Below, piece after piece: positions 4,818 through 60,325 of a DNA stretch of 64,000 bases. This DNA comes from Minisyncoccia bacterium. Its GTDB lineage: Bacteria; Patescibacteriota; Minisyncoccia; UBA6257; 2-01-FULL-56-20. The number at the start of each line of letters is the position of its first letter. Position 1 is the first letter of the stretch. The stretch is taken from contig JBEKBG010000002.1 in NCBI GenBank assembly GCA_050015515.1, positions 18,777-82,776 of the forward strand, given 5' to 3'. Made by a program: the position numbers and the translations under genes. The notes below the pieces were generated by a model that was given only the letters and a program-made list of their open reading frames with translations, had not been told where the DNA came from and searched no databases.

Positions 4818-6935
4818 ATGCCCCGACAATATTCCATCGAGAAGACCCGCAACATCGGCATCATCGCGCACATCGATGCGGGTAAGACGACCGTCAGTGA
4901 ACGCGTGCTTTTTTATACCGGCGTTTCGCACAAGATCGGCGAGGTGCACACGGGCGACACGGTGATGGATTGGATGGAGCAGGAACGCGAGCGCGGCATC
5001 ACGATCACGAGCGCCGCGACGACCGCGTTCTGGACGCCCACGTATCACGCCGCGGGTCCCGACCATAAAAACTTCGAGCACCGCATCAACCTGATCGACA
5101 CTCCGGGCCACATTGACTTTACCGTGGAGGTAAAGCGCTCGCTGCGCGTTTTGGACGGCGCGGTCGTCGTATTCGACGGCGTCGCCGGCGTGGAGCCGCA
5201 GTCGGAGACCAACTGGCGCTACGCGGACGATTACAAAGTGCCGCGCATCTGCTTTATCAACAAGCTCGACCGCGCCGGCGCGGACTTTGAAAAGAGCTTC
5301 AAGTCCATCCTTGACCGCCTCACCCAGAACGCGATCCCGATCCAGCTGCCGATCGGCACCGAGGCGAACTTTAGCGCGGTCGTGAACCTGCTCGAGAACA
5401 AGGCGTATACCTTCGAAGGGGAGCACGGCGAGAATATCGTAGAGATCCCGATCCCGGCAGATATGATGGAGACGGTGGCAAAGCATCGCCATGATCTCAT
5501 CGAAAAGATCGCGGAGAACGACGACATCGTGATGGCGAATTACTTGGACGGAAAAGAGATCTCACTCGAGGACCTTCGCAAGACGTTACGCAAAGGCGTC
5601 ATCGCAAACACGATCGTGCCGGTCATGTGTGGTTCGGCGCTCAAGAACAAAGGCGTGCAGTTTATGTTGGATGCCGTCATCGAATACCTGCCGTCGCCGG
5701 CGGACATGCCGCCGATCATGGCGCATGACGAAAAGACGGGCGAAATTGTGCCGGTCAAGCTTACCGACGAAGAGCACTTTGCGGGTTTGGCCTTCAAGAT
5801 CGCAACGGATCCGTTCGTAGGAAACCTGGCGTTCTTCCGCGTCTATGCCGGCGTCCTTAAGAAAGGCTCGTATGTGTATAACTCCACGAAGGGTCAGCAG
5901 GAGCGCGTCAGCCGTATCGTCCGCATGCACGCGAACGACCGCGAAGAAGTGGACGAGGTCTACTCCGGCGAGATCGCCGCAATCGTGGGCTTAAAGGGCA
6001 CCACCACCGGCGACACATTGTGCGATCCGGATCACGCCGTCATTTTGGAAAAGATCACGTTCCCGGAGCCGGTCATCGGGTTGCGCATCGAACCGAAGAC
6101 AAAAGCGGACCAGGAGAAGATGGGCATTGCATTGCATCGCTTGGCGGAAGAAGATCCGACGTTCCGTGTGGAAGGCGATAACGAGACGGGGGAGACGATC
6201 ATCTCCGGCATGGGCGAATTGCACTTGGACATCATCGTGGACCGCATGAAGCGCGAGTTCAACGTCGGCGCAAACGTGGGTCGGCCGCAGGTGGCATACC
6301 GCGAAACGATCACGGCGGAAGCCGAGGGCGAAGGCAAGTACATCAAGCAATCCGGTGGACGCGGTCAGTACGGTCACGTTAAGTTGCGCGTAAAGCCGGG
6401 AGAAAAAGGCTCGGGATTCGTGTTCGTTGACGCAATCAAAGGCGGTTCCATTCCGAAAGAATTCATCAACCCAACAGAGAAAGGCGTCAAAGAAGCGATC
6501 GATAAAGGTATTGTCGCCGGCTATCACATGGTAGACGTGGAGGTAGAGCTCTACGATGGTTCGTTCCACGAGGTGGACTCTTCCGAAGCGTCATTCAAGA
6601 TCGCGGGTTCCATGGCATTCCAGGACGCAGCCAAGAAAGCCAAGCCGGTCATTCTCGAACCGATCATGAAGATCCAGGTCATCGTGCCGGACAACTTCAT
6701 GGGCGAGGTCACGGGCAACGTCAGCGGCAAGCGCGGCGCCATCGAATCGATCGACGATCGTCCGGGTCAGCTCAAGGTGGTGAATGCCAAAGTGCCGTTG
6801 TCCGAATTGTTTGGTTACGCTACCGAGCTTCGCTCGATGTCACAGGGGCGTGGTTCATTTACGATGGAATTTGATCACTACGAGGCGGCACCGCGCAATG
6901 TGACGGAGCAGATTATTGAGGGGAAGAAGCGCTAA
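4818..6935 (+). CDS. fusA: elongation factor G
   Basis: [17 protein letters not shown], full EF-G domain order; 705 aa; about 12-aa insertion after switch region. Confidence 0.97.
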
Positions 6936-7059
6936 AACAATATAGGGCACATGCTTTTGAAAGGACGGCGTTCCAGCCTGCTGGCTGGCCGCCTTGGCTC
7001 TCGCCGCCTTCGCGGCTCCGAGACACCTTTCAAAAGCATGTGCCCTATGTTGTTTTAGC
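6931..7059. repeat. long palindromic element, family 1 (34-bp arms plus conserved about 60-nt core)
   Basis: Arms GCTAAAACAATATAGGGCACATGCTTTTGAAAGG / reverse complement (1 G-T mismatch); 5' arm contains the fusA stop codon; core ACGGCGTTCCAGCCTGCTGGCTGGCCGCCTTGGCTCTCGCCGCCTTCGCGGCTCCGAGAC. Confidence 0.8.
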
Positions 7060-7151
7060 GACCCGTTTCAGAGTGATCTGCGGCACGGTGTTCTTGGGCC
7101 GGAGATGAAGGTAGTCTAGCGAATTAATAAGTGCTAACATGTTAAATATAG

Positions 7152-12505: not shown

Positions 12506-13705
12506 ATGGCAGAAAAAGAAAAGTTCGATCGGTCCAAGCCGCACCTTAACGTAGGTACGATTGGTCACGTCGATCATGGCAAGACCACGTTGACCGCGGC
12601 CATCACTCACGTGTTGTTCATGAAGGGCTGGACAAAAAAAGAAGAGAACGTAAATCAGATCGACAACGCTCCAGAAGAGAAGGCGCGTGGTATCACTATC
12701 GCGTTGCATCACTCGGAATATAATTCGGAGAAGCGCCACTACGCGCACGTGGATGCTCCGGGACACGCAGACTATATTAAGAACATGATCACCGGTGCCG
12801 CCCAGATGGACGGCGCGGTGCTCGTCGTCGCCGCGACCGACGGCCCGATGCCGCAGACGCGCGAGCACATCTTGCTCGCTCACCAGGTCGGTGTGCCGAA
12901 CATCATCGTGTTCCTCAATAAAGTTGATATGGTGGATGATCCGGAATTGATCGATCTCGTGGAATCCGAAGTTCGTGAGCTTCTCACGAAAAATGGATTT
13001 GACGGCGAACATGCGCCGGTCATCCGCGGTTCCGCATTGAAGGCATTGAACGCAACCTCGGCCGATTCTCCGGATGCCAAGCCGATCCTCGATCTCGTGA
13101 AGGCGATGGATGATTACTTCCCAGATCCGGTTCGCGAACTCGACAAGCCGTTTCTTATGCCGATCGAAGACATATTCTCGATTGAAGGCCGTGGCACGGT
13201 CGTCACGGGACGCATTGAGCGCGGCAAGGTGAAGGTGAACGAGGAAGTTGAGGTCGTTGGCCTTAAGCCGACCCAGAAGACCGTCGTCACCGGAATCGAA
13301 ATGTTCAACAAGAGTTTGGACGAAGGCCAGGCAGGCGATAACGCCGGTTTGCTCCTCCGCGGCCTCAAGAAAGAGGACGTGGAGCGCGGACAGGTTTTGG
13401 CCAAGCCGGGCAGCGTGACCCCGCACGCGGAGTTCGAAGGCGAGATCTATGTGCTTTCGAAAGAAGAGGGCGGCCGCCACTCTCCGTTCTTTAAGGGCTA
13501 CAAGCCGCAGTTCTACATCCGCACGACCGACGTGACGGGCGAGGTTACCCTTCCGGAAGGAATGGAAATGGTCATGCCGGGTGATACCGTCAAGATTACC
13601 GTCAAGCTTATCACCCCGGTCGCTTTGGAAGACAAGATGCGTTTCGCCATCCGCGAGGGAGGCAAGACCGTTGGCGCCGGCGTCGTGACCAAAATAATTA
13701 AGTAA
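12506..13705 (+). CDS. tuf: elongation factor Tu
   Basis: [27 protein letters not shown]; 399 aa; AT-rich upstream with no SD. Confidence 0.97.
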
Positions 13706-13816
13706 GCAACATAAAACCGCCTTACGGGGACGGGTCGCGGCCTGCTAGCCGCGCCCTAACGCTCGGCACCTTCGTGCCTCCGCGATTCCCCTTAAAGGCG
13801 GTTTTATATTGCTTAC
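13702..13816. repeat. long palindromic element, family 1 (divergent member) after tuf
   Basis: Arms GTAAGCAACATAAAACCGCCTT / AAGGCGGTTTTATATTGCTTAC include the tuf TAA; core has CGCGGCCTGCTAGCCGCG and GGCACCTTCGTGCC hairpins homologous to the family-1 core with compensatory changes. Confidence 0.75.
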
Positions 13817-13911
13817 GTTTTTAAATTTTGTCACGACGCCGCGCGTCTCCGGTTCTCTTCGGGAGGTGTTTTTGTTCGAGTGTTGAGGAGATACTCGGGC
13901 CTGAGCGACAT

Positions 13912-16102: not shown

Positions 16103-16426
16103 ATGGCCAAAACAGACGTTCCCCAAAAACTGCGCTTGCGCATAAAGTCCTACGATCACAAACTGATCGACAATTCGGCACGCCAGATCATCGAGGCCGC
16201 CGAGCGGAACGATGCGAAAGTGACGGGGCCGATCCCGCTTCCCACGGAAGTAAAGCATTACACCGTCAACCGTTCGACCTTTGTCCACAAGGACGCTCGC
16301 GAGCAGTTCGAGCTCCGCATTCATAAGCGCCTCGTCGAAATATTGAATCCCAACCAGAAAATCATCGAATCACTTTCGAACCTGAATCTTCCTGCGGGCG
16401 TGGATATAGAAATAAAGATGGTTTAA
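16103..16426 (+). CDS. rpsJ: 30S ribosomal protein S10
   Basis: [23 protein letters not shown]…VTGPIPLPT; separated from rplC by a 3.9-kb insertion. Confidence 0.9.
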
Positions 16427-16507
16427 AACAAAAGCCCCCTCCTTTGCAAACGGAAATGCCACGTAGGAACGTGACCGTTTGCAAAGGAGGGGGCTTTTGT
16501 TTTAAAC
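16421..16507. repeat. long palindromic element, family 2, overlapping rpsJ stop
   Basis: Arms GTTTAAAACAAAAGCCCCCTCCTTTGCAAACGG / reverse complement (33 bp, perfect); arm contains GTT-TAA of rpsJ; core AAATGCCACGTAGGAACGTGA. Confidence 0.8.
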
Positions 16508-16693
16508 CGTGGACACCATAAGAAGAAGATTCAGAGAGCTTTACTGTCCATAAATGTTCGATCCCCGCGTCTCTTATGAAACACGGGGATCAGGGGAAAA
16601 TCCCGAATTGTTCCTTAATTGTATCGCGCCACCAGGATAAATCAAAAAGTTTTTAATAATTTTTTAATCTTTGAAAATGGTATAGTGAAGAAA

Positions 16694-19892: not shown

Positions 19893-19930
19893 GCGGCTTC
19901 GTATGCCAAGTGGCGATGTGGCCCTGCCTC

Positions 19931-20053
19931 CTTTCTTATGCTTTTTGAGGGACTATCGGAGGCCGCGAAGGCGGCCGAGATGGAGCGCCCGCGCAGCAGC
20001 GCGGGACGCGTGCCCGAAAAAAGCATAAGAAAGGAGGAAGGGCCGGAGCCCAT
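19931..20053. repeat. long palindromic element, family 1 (inverted core orientation)
   Basis: Arms GCCCTGCCTCCTTTCTTATGCTTTTT / AAAAAAGCATAAGAAAGGAGGAAGGGC; core reverse complement contains GGCCGCCTTCGCGGCCTCCGA and CCCGCGCTGCTGCGCGGG hairpin. Confidence 0.75.
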
Positions 20054-28496: not shown

Positions 28497-28937
28497 ATGA
28501 AACTTCATTCACGAACTTCTCTCCGCCCTAAGCGTCTTCAGCGCATCGGCCGTAGCGGCAAGCGCGGCAGTTATTCCGGCCGTGGTGTCAAAGGACAGCG
28601 CTCCCGCTCGGGACACCGCATCCGTCCGGCGGAACGCGATATCATTCTGAAGATCCCGAAGATGCGCGGATTCCGGAATAAGGAAAAGGCTGATGCGCCC
28701 GTCGTGTTCAATCTCGGTACGCTTTCCGGCAAGCTGAAGATACACGTGAGGGTTGGCGCCCCGCTTGAGGTCAGCTATGCACTTTTAAAGACCGTAAAGT
28801 TGTTAAAGAAAGATTATAAAGGCGTCGTAAAGATCCTTGGAACGGGGGATATCGCGTTCCCGATCGCTATCAGTGGCTTTGAAGTGTCAGCCAGCGCGAA
28901 AGCAAAAATCGAGAAAGCCGGTGGTAGTGTAAAATAA
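28497..28937 (+). CDS. rplO: 50S ribosomal protein L15
   Basis: Basic Gly-rich N-terminus RPKRLQRIGRSGKRG…; 146 aa. Confidence 0.92.
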   Translation: MKLHSRTSLRPKRLQRIGRSGKRGSYSGRGVKGQRSRSGHRIRPAERDIILKIPKMRGFRNKEKADAPVVFNLGTLSGKLKIHVRVGAPLEVSYALLKTVKLLKKDYKGVVKILGTGDIAFPIAISGFEVSASAKAKIEKAGGSVK

Positions 28938-29004
28938 AACAAATATGAACAGCCCTTTGCCTCCCCAAGATGGACCGTTCGGCAAAGGGCTGTTCATATT
29001 TGTT
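28938..29004. repeat. perfect 24-bp-arm palindrome between rplO and secY
   Basis: AACAAATATGAACAGCCCTTTGCC-(19 nt TCCCCAAGATGGACCGTTC)-GGCAAAGGGCTGTTCATATTTGTT; begins right after the rplO TAA. Confidence 0.8.
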
Positions 29005-29033
29005 TCCTTGTTTGTTTAATATAAGATAAAGAC

Positions 29034-30305
29034 ATGGAAAGATTTCTACAGATATTCAAAGTAAAGGAGCTCCGCAACAAGATCCTCATCGTGTTGGGGC
29101 TTTTGGTTGCCTATCGTGTGCTTGCCGCGATTCCGATCCCAGGGGTGAATGCGCAGGCGCTCCAGAATTATTTCAATTCCAACCAGCTGCTCGGGTTCCT
29201 CAACTTCTTCTCCGGTGGCGGACTCGCGAACCTTTCGGTCGTGATGCTTGGCGTCGGCCCGTACATCACTTCCACCATCGTCATGCAGCTCATGACCATC
29301 ATCTTCCCGAAGATGAAGGAGATGTATTACGAGGAGGGCGCCCGCGGCCAGGCGAAGTTCAACCAATACTCGCGTTTGCTCACCGTGCCGTTCGCGTTCG
29401 TGCAGTCCTACGGATTCCTGAGTCTGCTCATGTCGCAGGGCGTGATCCCGCATCCGGACGCGTTTGACCTGATCCGTAACGTGATTGTGATCACGTGCGG
29501 CTCGATGCTCGCGCTCTGGCTCGGCGAACTCATCACCGAAGAGAAGGTGGGCAACGGCATCTCACTCATCATCTTGGCTGGTATCCTGGCGCGCATCCCG
29601 CAGAGCGTCGGAACCGCGTTCGCGTCCTACACCGCCCAGCTTTTGACCTCGTATGTTGGGTTCCTCGTCGTGGGACTATTGCTCATCGCTGGCGTTGTAT
29701 ATCTGAACGAAGGCGAACGGAAAATACCTGTTGCGTACGCAAGGCGTGTTCGCGGCACCAAAATGTACGGTGGCGCACAAAGCTATCTGCCTCTCAAGGT
29801 GAATCAGGCGGGCATGATTCCGCTTATCTTTGCGATCTCCGTCCTGCTCTTCCCGCAATTCCTGGCAACGATCATCGCGCTCTTTTCGGCATCGTGGGGG
29901 CTAAAGGTAAGTGCCTTTGCGCAGGCCTTTGTGGCAAACCAGTTGTGGTACGGCATATTCTATTTCCTACTGGTATTTATCTTTACGTATTTCTATACCG
30001 CGATCACGTTCAATCCGGAAGAGGTTGCCAAAAATCTCCAGCAGAGCGGGGGATTTGTGCCGGGCATCCGGCCGGGCGAGAACACGGAGAAGTTCTTCCA
30101 TGGCGTGGTAAACCGCATCACGTTCTTCGGCGCGGCGTTCCTTGGTCTTATCGCGATCCTGCCGATCATCGTGCAATCGATCACGGGGGTCTCGGTTCTT
30201 ACGATCAGTGGCACCGCGTTATTGATCGTCGTTGCGGTTGCGCTCGAGACCATGCGCATGGTGGATTCGCAGTTGACGGTGAGGGAATATGAGGGCATAG
30301 AATAA
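29034..30305 (+). CDS. secY: preprotein translocase subunit SecY
   Basis: 423 aa, 10 TM, characteristic LGVGPYITSTIVMQL… GG…. Confidence 0.95.
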   Translation: MERFLQIFKVKELRNKILIVLGLLVAYRVLAAIPIPGVNAQALQNYFNSNQLLGFLNFFSGGGLANLSVVMLGVGPYITSTIVMQLMTIIFPKMKEMYYEEGARGQAKFNQYSRLLTVPFAFVQSYGFLSLLMSQGVIPHPDAFDLIRNVIVITCGSMLALWLGELITEEKVGNGISLIILAGILARIPQSVGTAFASYTAQLLTSYVGFLVVGLLLIAGVVYLNEGERKIPVAYARRVRGTKMYGGAQSYLPLKVNQAGMIPLIFAISVLLFPQFLATIIALFSASWGLKVSAFAQAFVANQLWYGIFYFLLVFIFTYFYTAITFNPEEVAKNLQQSGGFVPGIRPGENTEKFFHGVVNRITFFGAAFLGLIAILPIIVQSITGVSVLTISGTALLIVVAVALETMRMVDSQLTVREYEGIE

Positions 30306-30412
30306 AACACCCCTCCTTTGAAAGGACGGCGTTCCGGTCTGCTGACCGGCCGCCTTGGCTCTCGCCGCCTTCGCGGCTCCGAGACACCTTTCGAAGGAAG
30401 GGTGTGTTATTC
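30300..30412. repeat. long palindromic element, family 1 (near-identical core to 6931-7059)
   Basis: Arms GAATAAAACACCCCTCCTTTGAAAGG / CCTTTCGAAGGAAGGGTGTGTTATTC (3 mismatches); arm includes the secY TAA; core differs from the fusA copy only by compensatory CCAGCC…GGCTGG to CCGGTC…GACCGG. Confidence 0.8.
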
Positions 30413-30516
30413 TATGCCTGGTGACTAGAGAAAGAAGTATTGATAAACGATTGACGGATTTTCTAATGAAAGATATAATACCGCCAGGCTTCAAATAGGT
30501 TCTAGGAGGAAAGATC

Positions 30517-45906: not shown

Positions 45907-47040
45907 TTATCGTGCCGAACGATATCCTCCCGGTACGCCGTTCTTTGAGAGCACGACCTGCCATAGTTCGACGTTGCGTGCACGGAAGGAGCCGGCGCAG
46001 GCGAGGAGATAATATTTCCACATGCGGTAGAATGTCTCACCATACGTGGCGGCGATCTCCGGCCAATGTGCGTCAAAATTTTTGAACCATCCCATGAGCG
46101 TCTTGTCGTAATCGGCGCCGAAGTTATGCCAATCTTCCATCACGAATAAGTTTTCTATCGCGCCGCCGATCTGCGCGACCGTGGGCACGGCGCCGTTCGG
46201 GAAGATGTATTTGTCTATCCACGCGTCGGGGGTGCCGTCATTGGCGTTCGCGCCGATCGTGTGCAATAAGAACAGGCCGCCATCTTTTAAGTGATCATGC
46301 GCGACCTCCATATACTCTTTATAGTGTTTTGTCCCGACGTGCTCGAACATGCCGAGCGAGATGATGTGGTCGAATGTGCCCTCGATGTCGCGATAATCTT
46401 GCAGGAGAAACTCCACCGGCAGGCCCTTACAAAGCTCGCGGCCGAGGGCTACCTGCTCTTTTGACACCGTGACGCCCGTTACTCGCGCGCCATATTTTTC
46501 CGCGGCAAACTTTGCAAAACTTCCCCAACCGCAGCCGATGTCGAGCACGTGCTGGCCGGCCTTGAGGCCGATCTTGCGGCAGACGAGATCGAGCTTTGCC
46601 TCCTGTGCTTCGTCGAGGGTGCGTGCGGTCACCCAATAGCCGCAGGTATAGGTGAGCCGCTTATCGAGCATCCGCTCAAAGAGATTGTTGCCGATGTCGT
46701 AGTGATGTTTACCAATATCGAACGCGCGCCGTTTTGCGCCGCGGCTTTTGAATGTGGAAAGATATGCCGCAACGTTTTTGAACGATACCCGCGCTCTGTC
46801 CACAACATGCGAACGGAAAAGGTGCGCAATCAGCTCGTCGACCTGGTCGCAGTCCCAATCTCCGGCCATGTACGCCTCGCCGAACGCCAGACTGCCGCCA
46901 CGCACAAATGCTTTATAGACATTCTCGTTGTGCACGCGGATATCCCACGGGCGTTCGCCGTTTATCTTTATATCCGCCTCTGCGAGCATTTTCTCGACTA
47001 CTGCCTTTGCCTGGTCCATATGTTTATTATATGCGAACAT
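45907..47040 (-). CDS. cfa: cyclopropane-fatty-acyl-phospholipid synthase family methyltransferase
   Basis: VLDIGCGWGSFAKFAAEKYGARVTGVTVS…; full CFA-synthase length 377 aa. Confidence 0.85.
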   Translation of the reverse strand: MFAYNKHMDQAKAVVEKMLAEADIKINGERPWDIRVHNENVYKAFVRGGSLAFGEAYMAGDWDCDQVDELIAHLFRSHVVDRARVSFKNVAAYLSTFKSRGAKRRAFDIGKHHYDIGNNLFERMLDKRLTYTCGYWVTARTLDEAQEAKLDLVCRKIGLKAGQHVLDIGCGWGSFAKFAAEKYGARVTGVTVSKEQVALGRELCKGLPVEFLLQDYRDIEGTFDHIISLGMFEHVGTKHYKEYMEVAHDHLKDGGLFLLHTIGANANDGTPDAWIDKYIFPNGAVPTVAQIGGAIENLFVMEDWHNFGADYDKTLMGWFKNFDAHWPEIAATYGETFYRMWKYYLLACAGSFRARNVELWQVVLSKNGVPGGYRSAR

Positions 47041-47074
47041 GCACGCATGTTGTCAATCTGGTAAACTTATAACA

Positions 47075-49648
47075 ATGGCAGACGAATTATCACTCGACGC
47101 GCTTGCGAAGAAAACGCCCGACGAGATCTTTGCGGCGCTCAAAACCTCCGCGCGTGGGCTTTCCGCGCAAGAGGCGGCCGCGCGGCTCACGACCTACGGC
47201 CCGAACGAGTTTGCGGGTCGGAAAAAACTCCAGCCACTTTTGATATTTCTTTCCAAATTTCGGAACCCGCTGCAGATCCTGTTGATCGTCGCGGCGATCA
47301 TCTCCGGCATTTTGGGATCACACATCGAGGCGATCATCATTTTAGTGATCGTGTTCGGCAGCGCGTTCATCGATTTCTTCAATACGTATAAATCCGCACA
47401 GGCGGCGGAGGCGCTGCAGGAAAAAGTGACGATCACCGCGGCGGTGATGCGCGGCGGTGAGTTGAAAGAGCGCTCGTTGCGCGAAGTGGTGCCGGGAGAT
47501 GTTTTTACGCTGGAAGCGGGGGATCTGGTCCCCGCCGACGCGATCGTCATTGAAGCGCATGATTTGTTTTTGAACGAAGGCGTGCTGACGGGGGAATCGT
47601 TGCCGGTGGAGAAAGAGGCGGGGGTCGCGACGGGCGCGTCGGCATCGACGGGGTTCGCCGCGCGGACCATCCTCCTCGGCACCAGCGTGGTTTCCGGCAA
47701 CGGCACGGCGGTGGCGGTGCTGACGGGCGCGCACACGAGCGTAGGCAATATCGCAGACAAGCTCAAGCGCCCGGACGCACCGACAGAGTTTGAAAAGAAC
47801 CTCAAAGATTTCAGTCTGTTCATTTTCCGCACTACGTTATTTCTGGTACTCGCCGTCATCTTGCTGAATATTTTTGTGATCCGACGCGATCCGTTGCAGA
47901 TTTTCATCTTTGCAGTCGCGATCGCGGTCGGCCTCACGCCGGAGCTGTTGCCGCTCATCGTCACGAGCAATCTCGCCAAGGGCGCCATCGAGATGTCCAA
48001 AAATGGCGTCATCGTCAAGAAGCTGGCGGCGATCCACAACTTTGGTAGCGTGGATGTGCTTTGCACGGACAAGACCGGTACGCTCACGGAAGATCGCATC
48101 ACTTTGATAAAATGTGTGGACGTCATGGGCGTAGAGAGCGATGAGACGAATCTGTGGGGTTATCTGAGCAGCAAGAACTTGACCGGTGTGCGTGGCGTAC
48201 TTGACGAAGCGATAGAGGAATTTAAAAAAATAGATATCGCCGGTTGGGAAAAGGTAGATGAGATCCCGTTCGATGCCGAGCGAAAGCTGGAATCGGTGAT
48301 CGTAAAAAAAGGGAAGGATACCGTGTTAATCGCAAAGGGTGCCCCAGAAGAGATTTTAAAGATAGCGGATCATTACGACGGACATCTCAGCGTGAGCGGT
48401 AAAGCGATCAAGCCGAAAAAACTCACGCCCGCGCTCCGCGCCAAGATCAATAAAGAGTACGAGGCGCTCTCCGCCGACGGCTTCCGCGTGCTCGCGCTCG
48501 GTATAAAAGAGGTCGCGCATAAGACGACGCCGTATAGCAAAAAAGACGAGAGCGATATTTCCTTCGTCGGTTTCCTCGCATTCCTCGATCCGCCGAAAAA
48601 GAGCGCCAAGGACACGCTTGCCAAGATGGCGGCGTATCACGTGGCGATCAAGATCATCACCGGTGACAACTTTTTGGTGACGAAAAAAATCGCGGACGAG
48701 ATCGGTCTGCCGATCATCGGTGCGCTCACGGGCGATGAGATGGCAAAGATGAACGAGCACGAACTTCACGCCAAGGTGGAGACGGCGAACATCTTTACGC
48801 GTGTCAACCCGGAGCAGAAGGAACACATTATTCGCATCTTGCGCGAGAACAAGCACGTCGTGGCGTATATGGGCGACGGCGTGAACGATGTCCTCTCTAT
48901 TAAGGAGGCGGACGTTGGCATCTCCGTCAATAACGCAGTGGATATTGCCAAGGAAACGGCAGACATCATTTTGCTGCGCAAAGGACTCGGCGAAATCATC
49001 GACGGCATCGTGGAGGGCCGCAAGACGTTCGCCAACACGTTCAAATATCTGATGATGGCGCTCTCGTCAAACTTCGGCAACATGTTCAGCATGCCGATCG
49101 CGTCCGTCTTCCTGCCGTTCCTGCCGATGACCGCGCCGCAGATCTTGCTCAACAACTTTCTCTACGATTCGTCACAGCTCTCAATCCCGTTCGACAAAGT
49201 GGACCAGGATTTCCTCGCACGGCCCAAAAAATTCAACATCGCGTACATGAAGAAGTTCATGTACATCTTCGGTCCGCTGTCGTCGCTCTTTGATTTTGCC
49301 ACGTTCGGCGTTCTACTCCTTGTGCTACATACGAATGGCATGGCGTTTCAGACCGGCTGGTTCCTAGAATCCATCGCCACGCAAACGCTTGTCGTGAACA
49401 TCATCCGGAGCAAGTTTAACTTCTGGCAGAACGGGGGACCGAGCAAAGCGCTCGTCCTCGCCACGTTCGGCGCCGTCGCCGTCGGCTGGGGGATCACGTA
49501 CTCGTTCCTCGGTCCCGCGTTCGGCTTCGCGAAGTTCGGGCTGTATCCGGTGTTGCTTATCTTGGTGATCGTTGCGGCATATCTGCTACTCGTGGAGTTC
49601 GTAAAAAAGTATTTCTTTAGGAAGTATGAATATTTGATAGAGAAATAA
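47075..49648 (+). CDS. P-type ATPase, MgtA-like (Mg2+ importing)
   Basis: DKTGTLT, TGES, MGDGVNDVLS motifs; N-terminus resembles MgtA (…LSAQEAAARLTTYGPNE…); adjacent mgtC-family gene. Confidence 0.8.
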   Translation: MADELSLDALAKKTPDEIFAALKTSARGLSAQEAAARLTTYGPNEFAGRKKLQPLLIFLSKFRNPLQILLIVAAIISGILGSHIEAIIILVIVFGSAFIDFFNTYKSAQAAEALQEKVTITAAVMRGGELKERSLREVVPGDVFTLEAGDLVPADAIVIEAHDLFLNEGVLTGESLPVEKEAGVATGASASTGFAARTILLGTSVVSGNGTAVAVLTGAHTSVGNIADKLKRPDAPTEFEKNLKDFSLFIFRTTLFLVLAVILLNIFVIRRDPLQIFIFAVAIAVGLTPELLPLIVTSNLAKGAIEMSKNGVIVKKLAAIHNFGSVDVLCTDKTGTLTEDRITLIKCVDVMGVESDETNLWGYLSSKNLTGVRGVLDEAIEEFKKIDIAGWEKVDEIPFDAERKLESVIVKKGKDTVLIAKGAPEEILKIADHYDGHLSVSGKAIKPKKLTPALRAKINKEYEALSADGFRVLALGIKEVAHKTTPYSKKDESDISFVGFLAFLDPPKKSAKDTLAKMAAYHVAIKIITGDNFLVTKKIADEIGLPIIGALTGDEMAKMNEHELHAKVETANIFTRVNPEQKEHIIRILRENKHVVAYMGDGVNDVLSIKEADVGISVNNAVDIAKETADIILLRKGLGEIIDGIVEGRKTFANTFKYLMMALSSNFGNMFSMPIASVFLPFLPMTAPQILLNNFLYDSSQLSIPFDKVDQDFLARPKKFNIAYMKKFMYIFGPLSSLFDFATFGVLLLVLHTNGMAFQTGWFLESIATQTLVVNIIRSKFNFWQNGGPSKALVLATFGAVAVGWGITYSFLGPAFGFAKFGLYPVLLILVIVAAYLLLVEFVKKYFFRKYEYLIEK

Positions 49649-49720
49649 AAATACCCTAGGCATCTCGCTCCGACGTAAGCACGTCCACTCGCTCAATGCC
49701 TAGGGTATTTTTATTTCTCT
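49639..49720. repeat. long palindromic element, family 3, overlapping ATPase stop
   Basis: 25-bp arms AGAGAAATAAAAATACCCTAGGCAT / reverse complement containing GAG-AAA-TAA; core CTCGCTCCGACGTAAGCACGTCCACTCGCTCA. Confidence 0.8.
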
Positions 49721-49732
49721 CGCGGAAGCGAA

Positions 49733-49760
49733 TTGACAAATAATATGGATATTCTATTAT
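49733..49760 (+). promoter_or_regulatory. promoter TTGACA-N16-TATTAT
   Basis: TTGACA 49733-49738, TATTAT 49755-49760. Confidence 0.5.
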
Positions 49761-53979: not shown

Positions 53980-54066
53980 GCAGAAACAAAATAGCAATCC
54001 TGTTTTTGACGGTCATGTTCCGACGTGGCATTTCCGTCAAAAACAGGATTGCTATTTTGTTTCTGC
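53980..54066. repeat. long palindromic element, family 2; 3' arm encodes the C-terminus and stop of the convergent RF1-like gene
   Basis: 33-bp perfect arms GCAGAAACAAAATAGCAATCCTGTTTTTGACGG / reverse complement; core TCATGTTCCGACGTGGCATTT. Confidence 0.8.
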
Positions 54067-55211: not shown

Positions 55212-55603
55212 GAGAGAAACCGTTGATCCTTGTGGTGGATGATGAGCAGGACCTTCGGGAGATCATGGTGTTAAAGTTGAGCGCGTCGGGGTTTGAGGCG
55301 ATCGTCGCTACCGATGCAAAAGAAGGGGTCGCCGCGGCAAAGCAATCGCATCCCGATCTCATATTGATGGACATCCATATGCCGGGCGAGTCGGGAACCG
55401 ACGCGGCGCTTGAGATCAAACAGAATCCGGAAACGAAAGACATCAAAATCGCATTTTTGAGCAACCTCAAAGACCCATGGCCACGAACCGCGCCCGCGCG
55501 CAACGATCTGGCGAAGTCGCTCGGCATGGAGGACTTTATCGATAAAACAGAAGACTTGGATATTACTGTTGCAAAAGTGCGAGAAATTTTAGCACGCGCA
55601 TAG
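55208..55603 (+). CDS. single-domain response regulator receiver (CheY-like)
   Basis: LVVDDEQDLREI…LILMDIHMPG…; 131 aa; overlaps previous gene by 4 nt. Confidence 0.85.
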   Translation: MREKPLILVVDDEQDLREIMVLKLSASGFEAIVATDAKEGVAAAKQSHPDLILMDIHMPGESGTDAALEIKQNPETKDIKIAFLSNLKDPWPRTAPARNDLAKSLGMEDFIDKTEDLDITVAKVREILARA

Positions 55604-55678
55604 CAAAAGACCCTTCTTCTTTTTGACGGTTACGTTCCTACGTGGCATTTCCGTCAAAAAGAAGAAGGGTCTTTTGCT
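55602..55678. repeat. long palindromic element, family 2 between receiver gene and rpmE
   Basis: 28-bp perfect arms AGCAAAAGACCCTTCTTCTTTTTGACGG / reverse complement; core TTACGTTCCTACGTGGCATTT. Confidence 0.8.
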
Positions 55679-55684
55679 ATGCGC

Positions 55685-56587: not shown

Positions 56588-58140
<1,553 letters not shown>

Positions 58141-58271
58141 TAATCTATAAAATTCGTTTTTATAGAGTCGAACTTTCTTCTCTTTGGCCAGCGAATCGAT
58201 CGCAGGCGAAAGCGAGGGAGGTAATTGGGACAACTAAAAAGCTCTTTGTATAAATATGGTAGAATATATCT

Positions 58272-58671: not shown

Positions 58672-58974
58672 ATGATCAGCGAAGAAATCCTCAAAAAAAT
58701 AAAGCCGGGCGCGAAGGTCAAGGTGTACGAGGGCAAGACCCCGTTCGCCGGTTTAGTGATCGCACGCAAACACGGCTCCGAGCCGGGTGCGACGTTCACC
58801 GTCCGTACCACCCTTGCCGGCGTCGGCGTGGAGAAGGTGTTTCCGATCCACTCGCCATCCATCGTCAAGATCGATGTCGTTTCTTCGCCGAAGAAAGTGC
58901 ATCGTTCCAAGCTGTATTTCGTTCGGAATATCTCCGCGGCGAAGATCCGGCAGAAGTTAGACGTTTCGATGTAA
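58672..58974 (+). CDS. rplS: 50S ribosomal protein L19
   Basis: …KPGAKVKVYEG…FAGLVIARKHGSEPGATFTVR…VEKVFPIHSPSIVKIDV…. Confidence 0.85.
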   Translation: MISEEILKKIKPGAKVKVYEGKTPFAGLVIARKHGSEPGATFTVRTTLAGVGVEKVFPIHSPSIVKIDVVSSPKKVHRSKLYFVRNISAAKIRQKLDVSM

Positions 58975-58977
58975 AGC

Positions 58978-59051
58978 AAAAATAAAAAGTATAGCCCTCT
59001 CGCTCCAACGTAGGAACGTCCACTCGCTTGAGGGCTATACTTTTTATTTTT
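58978..59051. repeat. long palindromic element, family 3 after rplS
   Basis: 22-bp arms AAAAATAAAAAGTATAGCCCTC / reverse complement; core TCGCTCCAACGTAGGAACGTCCACTCGCTT. Confidence 0.8.
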
Positions 59052-59079: not shown

Positions 59080-59160
59080 GCGCGGGTGGCGAAATGGCAG
59101 ACGCACTACCTTGAGGTGGTAGCGCCGAAAGGCGTGGAGGTTCGACTCCTCTCCCGCGCA
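59080..59160 (+). tRNA. tRNA-Leu (anticodon GAG), type II with long variable arm, no encoded CCA
   Basis: GCGCGGG-TG-GCG-AAATGGCAGA-CGC-A-CTACC-TTGAGGT-GGTAG-CGCCGAAAGGCGT-GGAGG-TTCGACT-CCTCT-CCCGCGC-A. Confidence 0.85.
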
Positions 59161-59212
59161 CAAAAATAAAACAGGTCGGAATCATTGATCCCGACCCGGA
59201 GCCGTCATGCGG

Positions 59213-59578: not shown

Positions 59579-60160
59579 ATGGAAACCGAGATCGAAGCAA
59601 AATTTTTGGACATCGATCCTATCGCAGTGCGCGCGAAGTTAAAAGCGCTTGGCGCGGCGCTCATCTATCCCGAAGTGTTGATGAAACGAAAAGTGTTCGA
59701 TCATCCGACGAACAAGCAAAGCGATTGGCTCCGAGTGCGCGATGAAGGGGATAAGATCACGATGAGCTATAAGAAGGTCATCGATCGGACGGTGCATGGC
59801 ACCAAAGAGATAACCATAAAAGTTTCCAATTTTGATGATGCGTGCGCGATCCTCTTGGCGGCACAGCTTCGGCAGGCGGCGTATCAAGAAACGCGTCGGG
59901 AAACATGGCGGTTGGATGAAACGGAGATCATGATAGACACGTGGCCGTGGATACCGACCTTTGTAGAGATCGAAGCGCCTTCCGAAGAAAAGTTAAAAGC
60001 TGCGGCAAGAAAATTGGGATTGCAATGGGGTGATGCGCTCTATGGCAGTGTGGAACCGGCATACCAAAAATATTACGACGTGACCGAAAAAGAAATCGAT
60101 AGCTGGCCGGAGATAGTTTTTGGCCCCGTTCCCGACTGGCTCCTCCGGCGGAAAAAATGA
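59579..60160 (+). CDS. CYTH-domain protein (triphosphate tunnel metalloenzyme / class IV adenylyl cyclase-like)
   Basis: N-terminal EIEAKF (ExExK) motif; 193 aa. Confidence 0.75.
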   Translation: METEIEAKFLDIDPIAVRAKLKALGAALIYPEVLMKRKVFDHPTNKQSDWLRVRDEGDKITMSYKKVIDRTVHGTKEITIKVSNFDDACAILLAAQLRQAAYQETRRETWRLDETEIMIDTWPWIPTFVEIEAPSEEKLKAAARKLGLQWGDALYGSVEPAYQKYYDVTEKEIDSWPEIVFGPVPDWLLRRKK

Positions 60161-60173
60161 TTTGATGCGATCT

Positions 60174-60302
60174 CCAGAAAAGGACAAGCCCAGTACATTC
60201 TTTTGAGGGTATGCCGGAGCCGCGAAGGCGGCGAGGCGTAGCGATTTTTCAGTAGAAAAATACGCGACCCTCAAAAGAATGTACTGGGCTTGTCCTTTTC
60301 TG
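60174..60302. repeat. long palindromic element, family 1 (inverted core orientation)
   Basis: 35-bp perfect arms CCAGAAAAGGACAAGCCCAGTACATTCTTTTGAGGG / reverse complement; core reverse complement contains CTCGCCGCCTTCGCGGCTCCGGC. Confidence 0.8.
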
Positions 60303-60325
60303 ATGGTCTGTTATAATCATTTCCA

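What the first reader, a model, noticed from the sequence alone, without database searches (positions are those of the whole stretch)
49639..49720. Family-3 palindromic elements; share ACGTAGGAACGT with family 2
Elements after the P-type ATPase (49639-49720) and after rplS (58978-59051) have 22-25-bp perfect arms and cores CTCGCTCCGACGTAAGCACGTCCACTCGCT / CTCGCTCCAACGTAGGAACGTCCACTCGCT. The central ACGTAGGAACGT is the same dodecamer found in family 2, which suggests a common binding site or common origin for the two families.
Basis: seen in the sequence. Interest (0 to 1): 0.7.

Follow-up and report, generated by a model that had tools for sequence, protein, structure and literature searches.

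The report
Capped terminator hairpins in Paceibacterota
The two elements are real members of an undescribed family of long hairpins at gene ends in a group of tiny-genome (CPR) bacteria, in which the stem differs from site to site and a 30-base cap at the tip is conserved; what the cap does is unknown.

Summary
Observation confirmed. 49639-49720 and 58978-59051 are perfect 25- and 22-bp inverted repeats around a 30-32-nt core that is 27/30 identical. They lie directly after a P-type ATPase gene and rplS. The same core occurs in 72 copies at 32 distinct sites in Minisyncoccia/Paceibacterota MAGs and peat and soil metagenomes. It always caps an A-tract/stem/T-tract hairpin at the 3' end of a protein, tRNA or tmRNA gene. 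The stems covary strongly but use almost only Watson-Crick pairs. They also copy adjacent coding 3' ends in inverted form, and the cap flips between orthologues. All this points to stem maintenance at the DNA level by replication template switching. The cap consists of two UCGCUC repeats around an ACGU mini-hairpin and is on the sense strand at 17 sites against 1. Family 2 shares only this mini-hairpin. The four central bases vary (AAGA, AAGC, AGGA, CGGA), so the exact dodecamer is not the conserved unit. Orthologous sites carry F3, flipped F3, F2, F4, plain terminators or nothing, so whole hairpins turn over quickly. Best reading: terminator or 3'-end-protecting hairpins with an interchangeable RNA cap. 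How they spread and what binds the cap are unknown. There is no Rfam match, and four full-text searches found no paper describing such elements.

The parts
49639..49663 (+). F3 element 1, left arm (25 nt). Its first 10 nt, AGAGAAATAA, are the last codons and stop of the ATPase gene.
   Evidence: ORF end at 49648
49664..49695 (+). F3 element 1, conserved apical module CTCGCTCC-GACGT-AAGC-ACGTC-CACTCGCTCA. The mini-hairpin is at 49672-49685.
49696..49720 (+). F3 element 1, right arm. Its outer TTATTTCTCT is an inverted copy of the ATPase gene end.
58978..58999 (+). F3 element 2, left arm (22 nt), starting 4 nt after the rplS stop codon.
59000..59029 (+). F3 element 2, apical module TCGCTCC-AACGT-AGGA-ACGT-CCACTCGCTT. 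The dodecamer is at 59008-59019.
59030..59051 (+). F3 element 2, right arm, followed by a T-run and then tRNA-Leu (59080-59161).
46928..49648 (+). P-type cation ATPase gene whose transcript ends in element 1.
58672..58974 (+). rplS (L19) gene whose transcript ends in element 2.
16420..16508 (+). F2 hairpin between rpsJ and rplC: 34-nt perfect arms, core AAATGCCACGTAGGAACGTGA in sense orientation. It shares the tip mini-hairpin with F3.
55596..55684 (-). F2 hairpin between a response-regulator gene and rpmE, which converge: 34-nt perfect arms, core on the minus strand.
53980..54066 (-). F2 variant hairpin between NUDIX and release-factor genes, which converge. The tip is ACGTCGGAACAT, and the arms copy the release-factor gene end GCAGAAACAAAATAG.

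Best explanation
The two elements belong to a dispersed family (F3) of 75-85-bp hairpin elements found at the 3' ends of genes in a clade of Minisyncoccia/Paceibacterota (CPR bacteria). Each copy reads: A-tract, often containing the stop codon; a 20-28-bp stem that is largely site-specific; a conserved 30-32-nt cap; the complementary arm; a T-tract. In the transcript this is most likely a terminator that can work in both directions and/or a hairpin that protects the 3' end (inferred from anatomy and position, not shown). The stem is kept perfectly complementary at the DNA level by replication template switching, which also lengthens it and sometimes flips the loop. This is inferred from Watson-Crick-only covariation, inverted copies of neighbouring coding ends and flipped caps. 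The cap is two UCGCUC repeats flanking an ACGU mini-hairpin with a variable tetraloop. It is the part shared among copies, and it lies almost always on the sense strand. It is therefore probably read in RNA, as a protein-binding or fold-nucleating cap (inferred). Family 2 carries the same mini-hairpin in a different internal loop and can occupy the same sites, so the two are related, interchangeable caps. Whole hairpins are gained, replaced and lost at gene ends faster than the flanking proteins diverge (shown). How they spread is unknown.
For: Distribution: the core occurs in 5 Paceibacterota/uncultured MAGs and 59 metagenome stretches, giving 72 copies at 32 sites. The window's L19 is 100% identical to a Minisyncoccia MAG protein. 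Anatomy: the gapless alignment A1 has consensus A-run / stem / cap / stem / T-run, and the predicted folds agree. Position: copies lie directly after CDS, tRNA or tmRNA 3' ends. A TACAAT-type -10 for tRNA-Leu and a TTGACA-16-TATTAT site follow the two window elements. Stem: 91.9% of cells are paired against 42-48% when the partner is slid; 24 of 26 long-stem pairs change on both sides; G-U pairs are rarer than non-pairs. Orthologues differ by compensated double changes, including a transversion (W against L017 for F2; W against L010/L017/L068 for F3). Arms contain inverted copies of conserved coding ends (ATPase, release factor, and L31 in L068). Cap flips at orthologous hairpins: rplS site W/L010/L017 against L043/L067, and L021 against L047. 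Template switching is documented to create, homogenise and extend perfect inverted repeats (PMC8794818 and PMC5941160, read) and to invert their spacers (PMC8604942, abstract as listed). Sense bias: 33 copies sense against 4 antisense; 17 sites against 1, plus 2 mixed; binomial p = 1.4e-4. Mini-stem covariation. Turnover: the rpmE site carries F2, F4, F3 or a flipped F3 variant. The rplS site carries F3, flipped F3, F2, a CTCGCTC-only loop, plain terminators or nothing.
Against: No transcript data, so termination or stabilisation is inferred only. The tool's terminator scan does not call these hairpins because their loops exceed 8 nt. Several sit inside ribosomal-protein operons (rpsJ|rplC, rplO|secY), where a strong terminator would be odd. 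Arm mismatches are mostly A:C on the sense strand (28) rather than G:U (10), which does not fit selection on sense-RNA pairing. The sense bias cannot be separated from a replication-strand bias, because nearly all the genes concerned are on the majority strand. Core invariance is partly forced by the search patterns. No binding partner and no means of spread were identified.
Confidence: 0.5

Rival explanations
1. Purely selfish, non-autonomous mobile hairpins (MITE/REPIN-like), moved by an enzyme encoded elsewhere in the genome, for example an HUH/Y1 transposase acting on single-stranded DNA hairpins. The cap would be conserved because that enzyme needs it or because copies are young. The orientation bias would reflect insertion into one replication strand.
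For: Multi-copy and intergenic, with 26 of 72 copies between convergent genes. At least six loop families coexist. Presence/absence and replacement occur at orthologous sites. Arms at different sites keep a weak family consensus: 12 pairs reach 12/15 identity or more, against 4.2 in column shuffles. Genes are strongly co-oriented, so a replication bias would look like a sense bias.
Against: There is no target-site duplication beyond the control. No longer element with the same ends was found in 424 kb. No transposase appears among the Pfam calls of about 100 kb of neighbouring genes. The conserved part is the unpaired cap and not the arms, the reverse of REP and MITE elements. Caps can flip, yet sense orientation prevails, which suggests selection after insertion.
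Confidence: 0.27
2. A DNA-level site. The hairpin or cruciform would present the cap as a binding site for a DNA-binding protein (recombination, replication priming or DNA uptake), or the inverted repeats would form a very small invertible switch.
For: Arms are Watson-Crick-only and perfect. The cap inverts between relatives. Gene-content breakpoints lie next to hairpins. A ComEC-type competence gene is present in relatives.
Against: A strong strand bias relative to the upstream gene is not expected for a double-stranded DNA site. A 30-bp spacer is too short for recombinase-mediated inversion by looping (general knowledge). No promoter-like motif lies in the cap. Copy density (2 F3 copies per 64 kb) is far below that of known uptake signals (general knowledge). 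Several unrelated cap families serve the same positions.
Confidence: 0.1
3. CsrA-type regulation: the tip hairpin ACGU-AGGA-ACGU would present a GGA loop that titrates a CsrA-like protein.
For: The F2 tips and 25 of 72 F3 tips carry GGA in a tetraloop on a short stem. From memory, this resembles the CsrA SELEX hairpin.
Against: 47 of 72 F3 tips (AAGA, AAGC, AATC, ACGA, AGGG) lack a GGA that CsrA requires, or otherwise differ, and orthologues switch between GGA and non-GGA loops. Whether this clade has CsrA was not tested.
Confidence: 0.04
4. Ordinary, unrelated terminators whose loops resemble each other by chance.
For: None beyond their terminator-like position.
Against: A 30-mer recurs with at most 3 mismatches against 0 expected. 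The same core recurs at 32 sites in many assemblies. Covariance-model scores are 70-97 bits.
Confidence: 0.01

Closest known systems
REP / REPIN / BIME elements of Proteobacteria
   Same: Short, multi-copy, extragenic palindromic elements at gene 3' ends and between convergent genes. They form stable RNA hairpins thought to terminate transcription or protect upstream mRNA, including inside operons.
   Different: In REP/REPINs the arms are the conserved, mobilised sequence (with a 5' GTAG-type tetranucleotide) and the loop varies. Here the loop is conserved and the arms are largely site-specific. No RAYT gene was seen. The host phylum is different.
Bacterial MITEs (Correia, ERIC, RUP, Nezha; reviews PMC2229807, PMC3184786)
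   Same: Small non-coding repeats with inverted-repeat ends, in several families per genome, polymorphic in presence between relatives.
   Different: There is no target-site duplication. The terminal inverted repeats are not conserved. No autonomous partner was found. The units are only 75-85 bp with a 30-nt conserved centre.
Bidirectional intrinsic (Rho-independent) terminators
   Same: A-tract, GC-containing stem, T-tract, directly after stop codons or RNA-gene 3' ends. Plain versions with 2-8-nt loops occur in the same genomes.
   Different: Loops are 19-70 nt with their own conserved structure, stems reach 38 bp, and the loop sequences recur as families.
Perfect inverted repeats maintained by replication template switching (PMC8794818, PMC5941160, PMC8604942)
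   Same: Perfect arms, multi-base compensatory changes, arm extension by copying flanking sequence and spacer inversion are all seen here.
   Different: That process explains the arms only. It does not explain why the same spacers recur at dozens of unrelated sites.
Small hairpin-loop inversions in chloroplast non-coding DNA
   Same: The loop between short inverted repeats flips between close relatives.
   Different: Chloroplast loops are not repeated families and show no orientation preference.

Membership tests
REP/REPIN | Conserved imperfect-palindrome arms shared by all copies, preceded by a GT[AG]G tetranucleotide | tested here: not met
   Arms differ between sites and the conserved part is the loop. 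GTAG occurs only in the AGGA-loop variants.
REP/REPIN | A cognate RAYT (tnpA-REP) gene in the genome | not testable with these tools
   Only the 64-kb window and fragments of relatives are held. No transposase appears in the Pfam lists.
REP/REPIN | Extragenic, multi-copy, frequent between convergent genes | tested here: met
   72 copies at 32 sites; 26 lie between convergent genes and the rest directly 3' of a gene.
MITE | Direct target-site duplication flanking the element | tested here: not met
   Flanking direct repeats are no longer than in a shifted control.
MITE | Terminal inverted repeats conserved among copies | tested here: inconclusive
   Only the innermost 2-3 bp (GTY/RAC) are conserved, plus a weak arm consensus: 12 pairs reach 12/15 identity or more against 4.2 in shuffles.
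MITE | A related autonomous element with the same ends | tested here: inconclusive
   No isolated half-sites flanking a longer insert in 424 kb. Whole genomes could not be scanned.
Intrinsic terminator | Stable stem-loop followed directly by a U-run, placed just after a gene's 3' end | tested here: met
   A1 consensus; folds at z = -8 to -9; positions. The tool's scan misses them because its loop limit is 8 nt.
Intrinsic terminator | Transcripts actually end there | not testable with these tools
   No transcript data available.
Any Rfam family | Score at or above a family's gathering threshold | tested here: not met
   The window scan gave only rRNA and tRNAs. Permissive scans of both elements gave only sub-threshold generic hairpin hits.
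CsrA-binding hairpin | GGA in the loop of every functional copy | tested here: not met
   GGA is present in 25 of 72 tetraloops.
Invertible DNA switch (inverton) | An inverted-repeat-flanked segment carrying a promoter and flipped by a recombinase | tested here: inconclusive
   Flips between relatives are seen. But the spacer is 30 bp, it has no promoter-like motif, and no recombinase gene lies nearby.

The most novel reading that the evidence does not exclude
CPR bacteria of this clade may use a set of interchangeable structured caps (F1-F6) on otherwise generic terminator hairpins as an RNA-level 3'-end code, read by dedicated factors. Alternatively, the caps may be a new kind of mobile unit in which only the hairpin tip is inherited and the stem is rebuilt from local sequence by template switching. 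Either would be a mode of 3'-end organisation or of mobility not described in the sources searched here.
Probability: 0.2. Interest if true: 0.8.

Novelty: new variant of a known kind. Interest (0 to 1): 0.55.

Why it matters
CPR/Patescibacteria make up a large share of bacterial diversity. Their genomes are very small and little non-coding function has been described in them, yet this 64-kb window carries at least 11 such hairpins, including several inside ribosomal-protein operons. A family with a conserved loop and free stems is the reverse of REP and MITE elements. It gives a clean natural example of DNA-level template switching that maintains, lengthens and flips hairpins. It also points to an unknown factor or process that recognises the caps. 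If the caps are read in RNA, they offer a way to study transcript 3'-end biology in organisms that cannot be cultured.

Tried and rejected
- **Early reading that the arms are unrelated and only the core moves into the tips of pre-existing terminators: weakened.** Arms at different sites keep a weak family consensus (AAAACCCATCGCTGTT-like), so at least part of the stem travels with the cap.
- **Target-site duplication:** none found.
- **Longer autonomous version with the same ends:** none in 424 kb.
- **Rfam:** no family at gathering threshold, and only generic hairpin noise at permissive thresholds.
- **Literature:** four full-text searches on CPR/Parcubacteria/Patescibacteria palindromes, conserved-loop repeats and terminator-hairpin insertions found nothing specific.
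- **Using the F3 covariance model to test homology with F2:** uninformative. F2 scores like any long hairpin.
- **Separating transcription bias from replication bias by using minority-strand genes:** only one such case, so no answer.
- **Orientation census for F1, F4 and F5 with quick regular expressions:** the patterns were too loose and the result was discarded.
- **First greedy ORF caller for gene context:** too noisy. It was replaced by a codon-usage-scored caller plus ARAGORN.
- **CsrA decoy idea:** set aside because most tetraloops lack GGA.
- **Kink-turn, loop-E and hammerhead-like motifs:** looked for by eye in the cap and not found (no tool test).
Full report
**Observation.** The two elements are as described. 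Arms 49639-49663/49696-49720 (25 nt) and 58978-58999/59030-59051 (22 nt) are 100% complementary. The intervening cores are CTCGCTCCGACGTAAGCACGTCCACTCGCT(CA) and (C)TCGCTCCAACGTAGGAACGTCCACTCGCT(T). They are 27/30 identical, with no other match in the window and none in shuffles. The upstream genes are a P-type cation ATPase and rplS/L19. tRNA-Leu follows the second element, and an MgtC gene on the opposite strand lies 270 nt after the first. The exact dodecamer ACGTAGGAACGT occurs three times in the window, always in the loop of a long hairpin, against 0 in 100 shuffles.

**Anatomy.** As RNA both elements fold into one long hairpin (-45.2 and -34.5 kcal/mol; z about -9 and -8). Above the long stem come a 2x2 mismatch, two G-C pairs, a 3x5 internal loop, a 4-5-bp ACGU stem and a tetraloop. 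The unpaired parts are two copies of UCGCUC, one on each side. The outer stem is an A-run paired with a T-run. In element 1 the A-run contains the ATPase stop codon, and the right arm ends in TTATTTCTCT, an inverted copy of the gene's last ten bases.

**Organism and distribution.**
- The window's L19 is 100% identical to a protein of a Minisyncoccia MAG.
- A degenerate core pattern hit 6 loci in 5 Paceibacterota or uncultured MAGs of 0.4-0.9 Mb.
- A looser pattern hit 59 metagenome stretches, mostly from peat and soil.
- Together with loci fetched by synteny, this gives 72 copies at 32 distinct genomic sites.
- All copies share one architecture: A-run, 17-28-bp stem, cap, complementary arm, T-run.
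- They follow protein genes, tRNA-Val, -Thr, -Arg, -Pro and -Leu, and tmRNA.
- Rfam has nothing matching, and full-text literature searches found no description.

**The stem.**
- On the gapless 57-sequence alignment A1, 91.9% of cells pair, against 42-48% when the 3' partner is slid by 1-3 columns. 24 of 26 long-stem pairs change on both sides.
- G-U pairs are rarer than outright mismatches.
- Orthologous hairpins differ by exact double substitutions, including a transversion. Examples are F2 in W against L017 with 3 compensated changes in 34 bp, and F3 at rplS in W against L010 and L017 and at the ATPase site in W against L068.
- A single mismatch in a 25-34-bp stem can hardly be seen by selection on RNA stability.
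- This pattern therefore points to correction at the DNA level.
- Arms also contain inverted copies of coding ends that are conserved in relatives lacking the hairpin or carrying a different one. These are the ATPase end in L017, the release-factor end in L017, and the L31 end in L068.
- The cap is flipped between orthologous hairpins with the same arms. At the rplS site, W/L010/L017 differ from L043/L067, and L021 differs from L047.
- Arm homogenisation, arm extension and spacer inversion are the documented products of replication template switching (PMC8794818 and PMC5941160; PMC8604942, abstract).
- This step is inferred, but it explains all three observations.

**The cap.**
- Positions not fixed by the search pattern are still nearly invariant (T27, C28, C54, T55, A58 in A1).
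- A variant at two sites keeps the mini-stem through two double changes (GACGT/ACGTC to AGCGT/ACGCT).
- A diverged copy after tRNA-Pro keeps TCGCTC...AAGA...TCGCTC.
- The tetraloop is the least constrained part: AAGA 26, AAGC 17, AGGA 14, CGGA 11. It changes between orthologues.
- The cap is on the sense strand of the gene that ends at the hairpin in 33 copies against 4. By site this is 17 against 1, with 2 mixed (p = 1.4e-4).
- Flips do occur, so this bias suggests selection for the sense orientation, that is, reading in RNA.
- Nearly all these genes lie on the locally dominant strand, so an insertion bias tied to replication cannot be excluded.
- One observation does not fit RNA-level selection on the stem. 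Arm mismatches are mostly A:C on the sense strand (28) rather than G:U (10).

**Turnover.**
- The convergent site next to rpmE carries F2 in W and L017, F4 in L066, a flipped F3 variant in L068 and F3 in L006/L024. The arms differ each time, although the L31 C-termini are almost identical.
- The rplS 3' site carries F3 (W, L010, L017), flipped F3 (L043, L067), and F2 in a genome whose L19 is 97% identical (L069).
- The same site carries a hairpin whose loop holds a single CTCGCTC (L068), plain short terminators (L066, L070, L072), or nothing (L071).
- The ATPase site has F3 in W and L068, but a MarC gene follows directly in L017.
- Whole hairpins are therefore replaced faster than the neighbouring proteins diverge, often together with changes in neighbouring gene content.
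- Arms at different sites are not random: 12 pairs reach 12/15 identity or more, against 4.2 in column shuffles. At least part of the stem therefore travels with the cap.
- No target-site duplication and no longer element with the same ends were found.

**Relation to family 2 and other families.**
- F2 (AAATGC-CACGT-AGGA-ACGTG-A, with conserved inner arms TTTTTGACGG/CCGTCAAAAA) shares only the tip mini-hairpin with F3, in the same orientation relative to the upstream gene.
- ACGTNNNNACGT is nearly confined to these two families in 477 kb.
- The same genomes also hold F1 (61-73 nt, two sub-hairpins), F4 (19 nt), F5 and F6 (17-18 nt), and plain terminators with 2-8-nt loops whose arms look like those of the capped hairpins.
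- In the window, capped hairpins sit after fusA, tuf, rpsJ (before rplC), rplO (before secY) and secY. This resembles the intercistronic REP hairpins of enterobacteria.

**Verdict.** The elements are best read as terminator or 3'-end-protecting hairpins. Their stems are maintained by template switching, and their conserved caps form interchangeable families. They work like REP-type elements but fail the defining features of REP/REPIN and MITE families. The function of the cap and the means of spread remain open.

Noticed in passing
window 6930-7060, 13695-13823, 19920-20044, 30294-30418, 60155-60322: A second family (F1) of hairpins with 61-73-nt cores containing two sub-hairpins. The sub-hairpin loops (TGCT, CTTC) are conserved while their stems covary. 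Copies occur in both orientations after co-directional genes (fusA, tuf, a methyltransferase, secY, a CYTH-domain gene).
   Followed up: partly
window 28937-29005; L002 3077-3137; L039 12982-13046; L066 7654-7714 and about 7000-7070: A fourth family (F4) with a 19-nt core TCCCCAAGATGGACCGTTC-like. In the window it lies between rplO and secY.
   Followed up: partly
window 16420-16508 and 28937-29005: Very stable hairpins (-67 kcal/mol for the first) lie inside the S10 and spc ribosomal-protein operons (rpsJ|rplC, rplO|secY). A full terminator would be unexpected there, which suggests partial termination or mRNA-segment stabilisation.
   Followed up: no
L068 10302-10351: The hairpin after rplS has the loop ACAGGTTCCTCGCTCGAGACTTGC, with a single CTCGCTC and no mini-hairpin. 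It could be a deletion derivative or a precursor of the F3 cap. It is the only such case in 477 kb.
   Followed up: partly
L017 6052-6453 (-) and 10066-10644 (-): A PemK/MazF-type toxin gene and a MarC gene sit exactly where the window has the F2-variant hairpin and F3 element 1. Gene-content differences between relatives lie next to hairpins.
   Followed up: partly
A1 arms (all F3 copies): Arm mismatches are asymmetric: A:C/C:A 28 against G:T/T:G 10 on the cap-sense strand. This is unexplained. It could reflect mutation bias or directional correction.
   Followed up: no
window 56603-58141: The 16S rRNA gene stands alone, with no 23S within the following 6 kb. Instead a response-regulator gene, rplS and tRNA-Leu follow.
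   Followed up: no
window 49733-49760: A near-consensus sigma-70-type site (TTGACA, 16 nt, TATTAT; 11 of 12 matches) lies 13 nt after F3 element 1, in a 270-nt gap before the convergent MgtC gene. No plus-strand gene was identified for it.
   Followed up: no
L068 10869-11552; L069 3687-4334; L070 3869-4519: ORFs with a faint LAGLIDADG_3 Pfam hit recur 1-1.5 kb downstream of rplS in three relatives. The window has no counterpart.
   Followed up: no
L003 6564-6598; L004 7025-7063; L015 6076-6112; L059 6993-7031: A recurring perfect palindrome ...TTTTAAAATCACA(3 nt)TGTGATTTTAAAA... It looks like an operator and is unrelated to the capped hairpins.
   Followed up: no
L034 976-1053: A diverged F3 copy after tRNA-Pro keeps the two TCGCTC repeats and the AAGA loop but has a different mini-stem. 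The arms differ completely from those at the same site in L057 and L062.
   Followed up: partly
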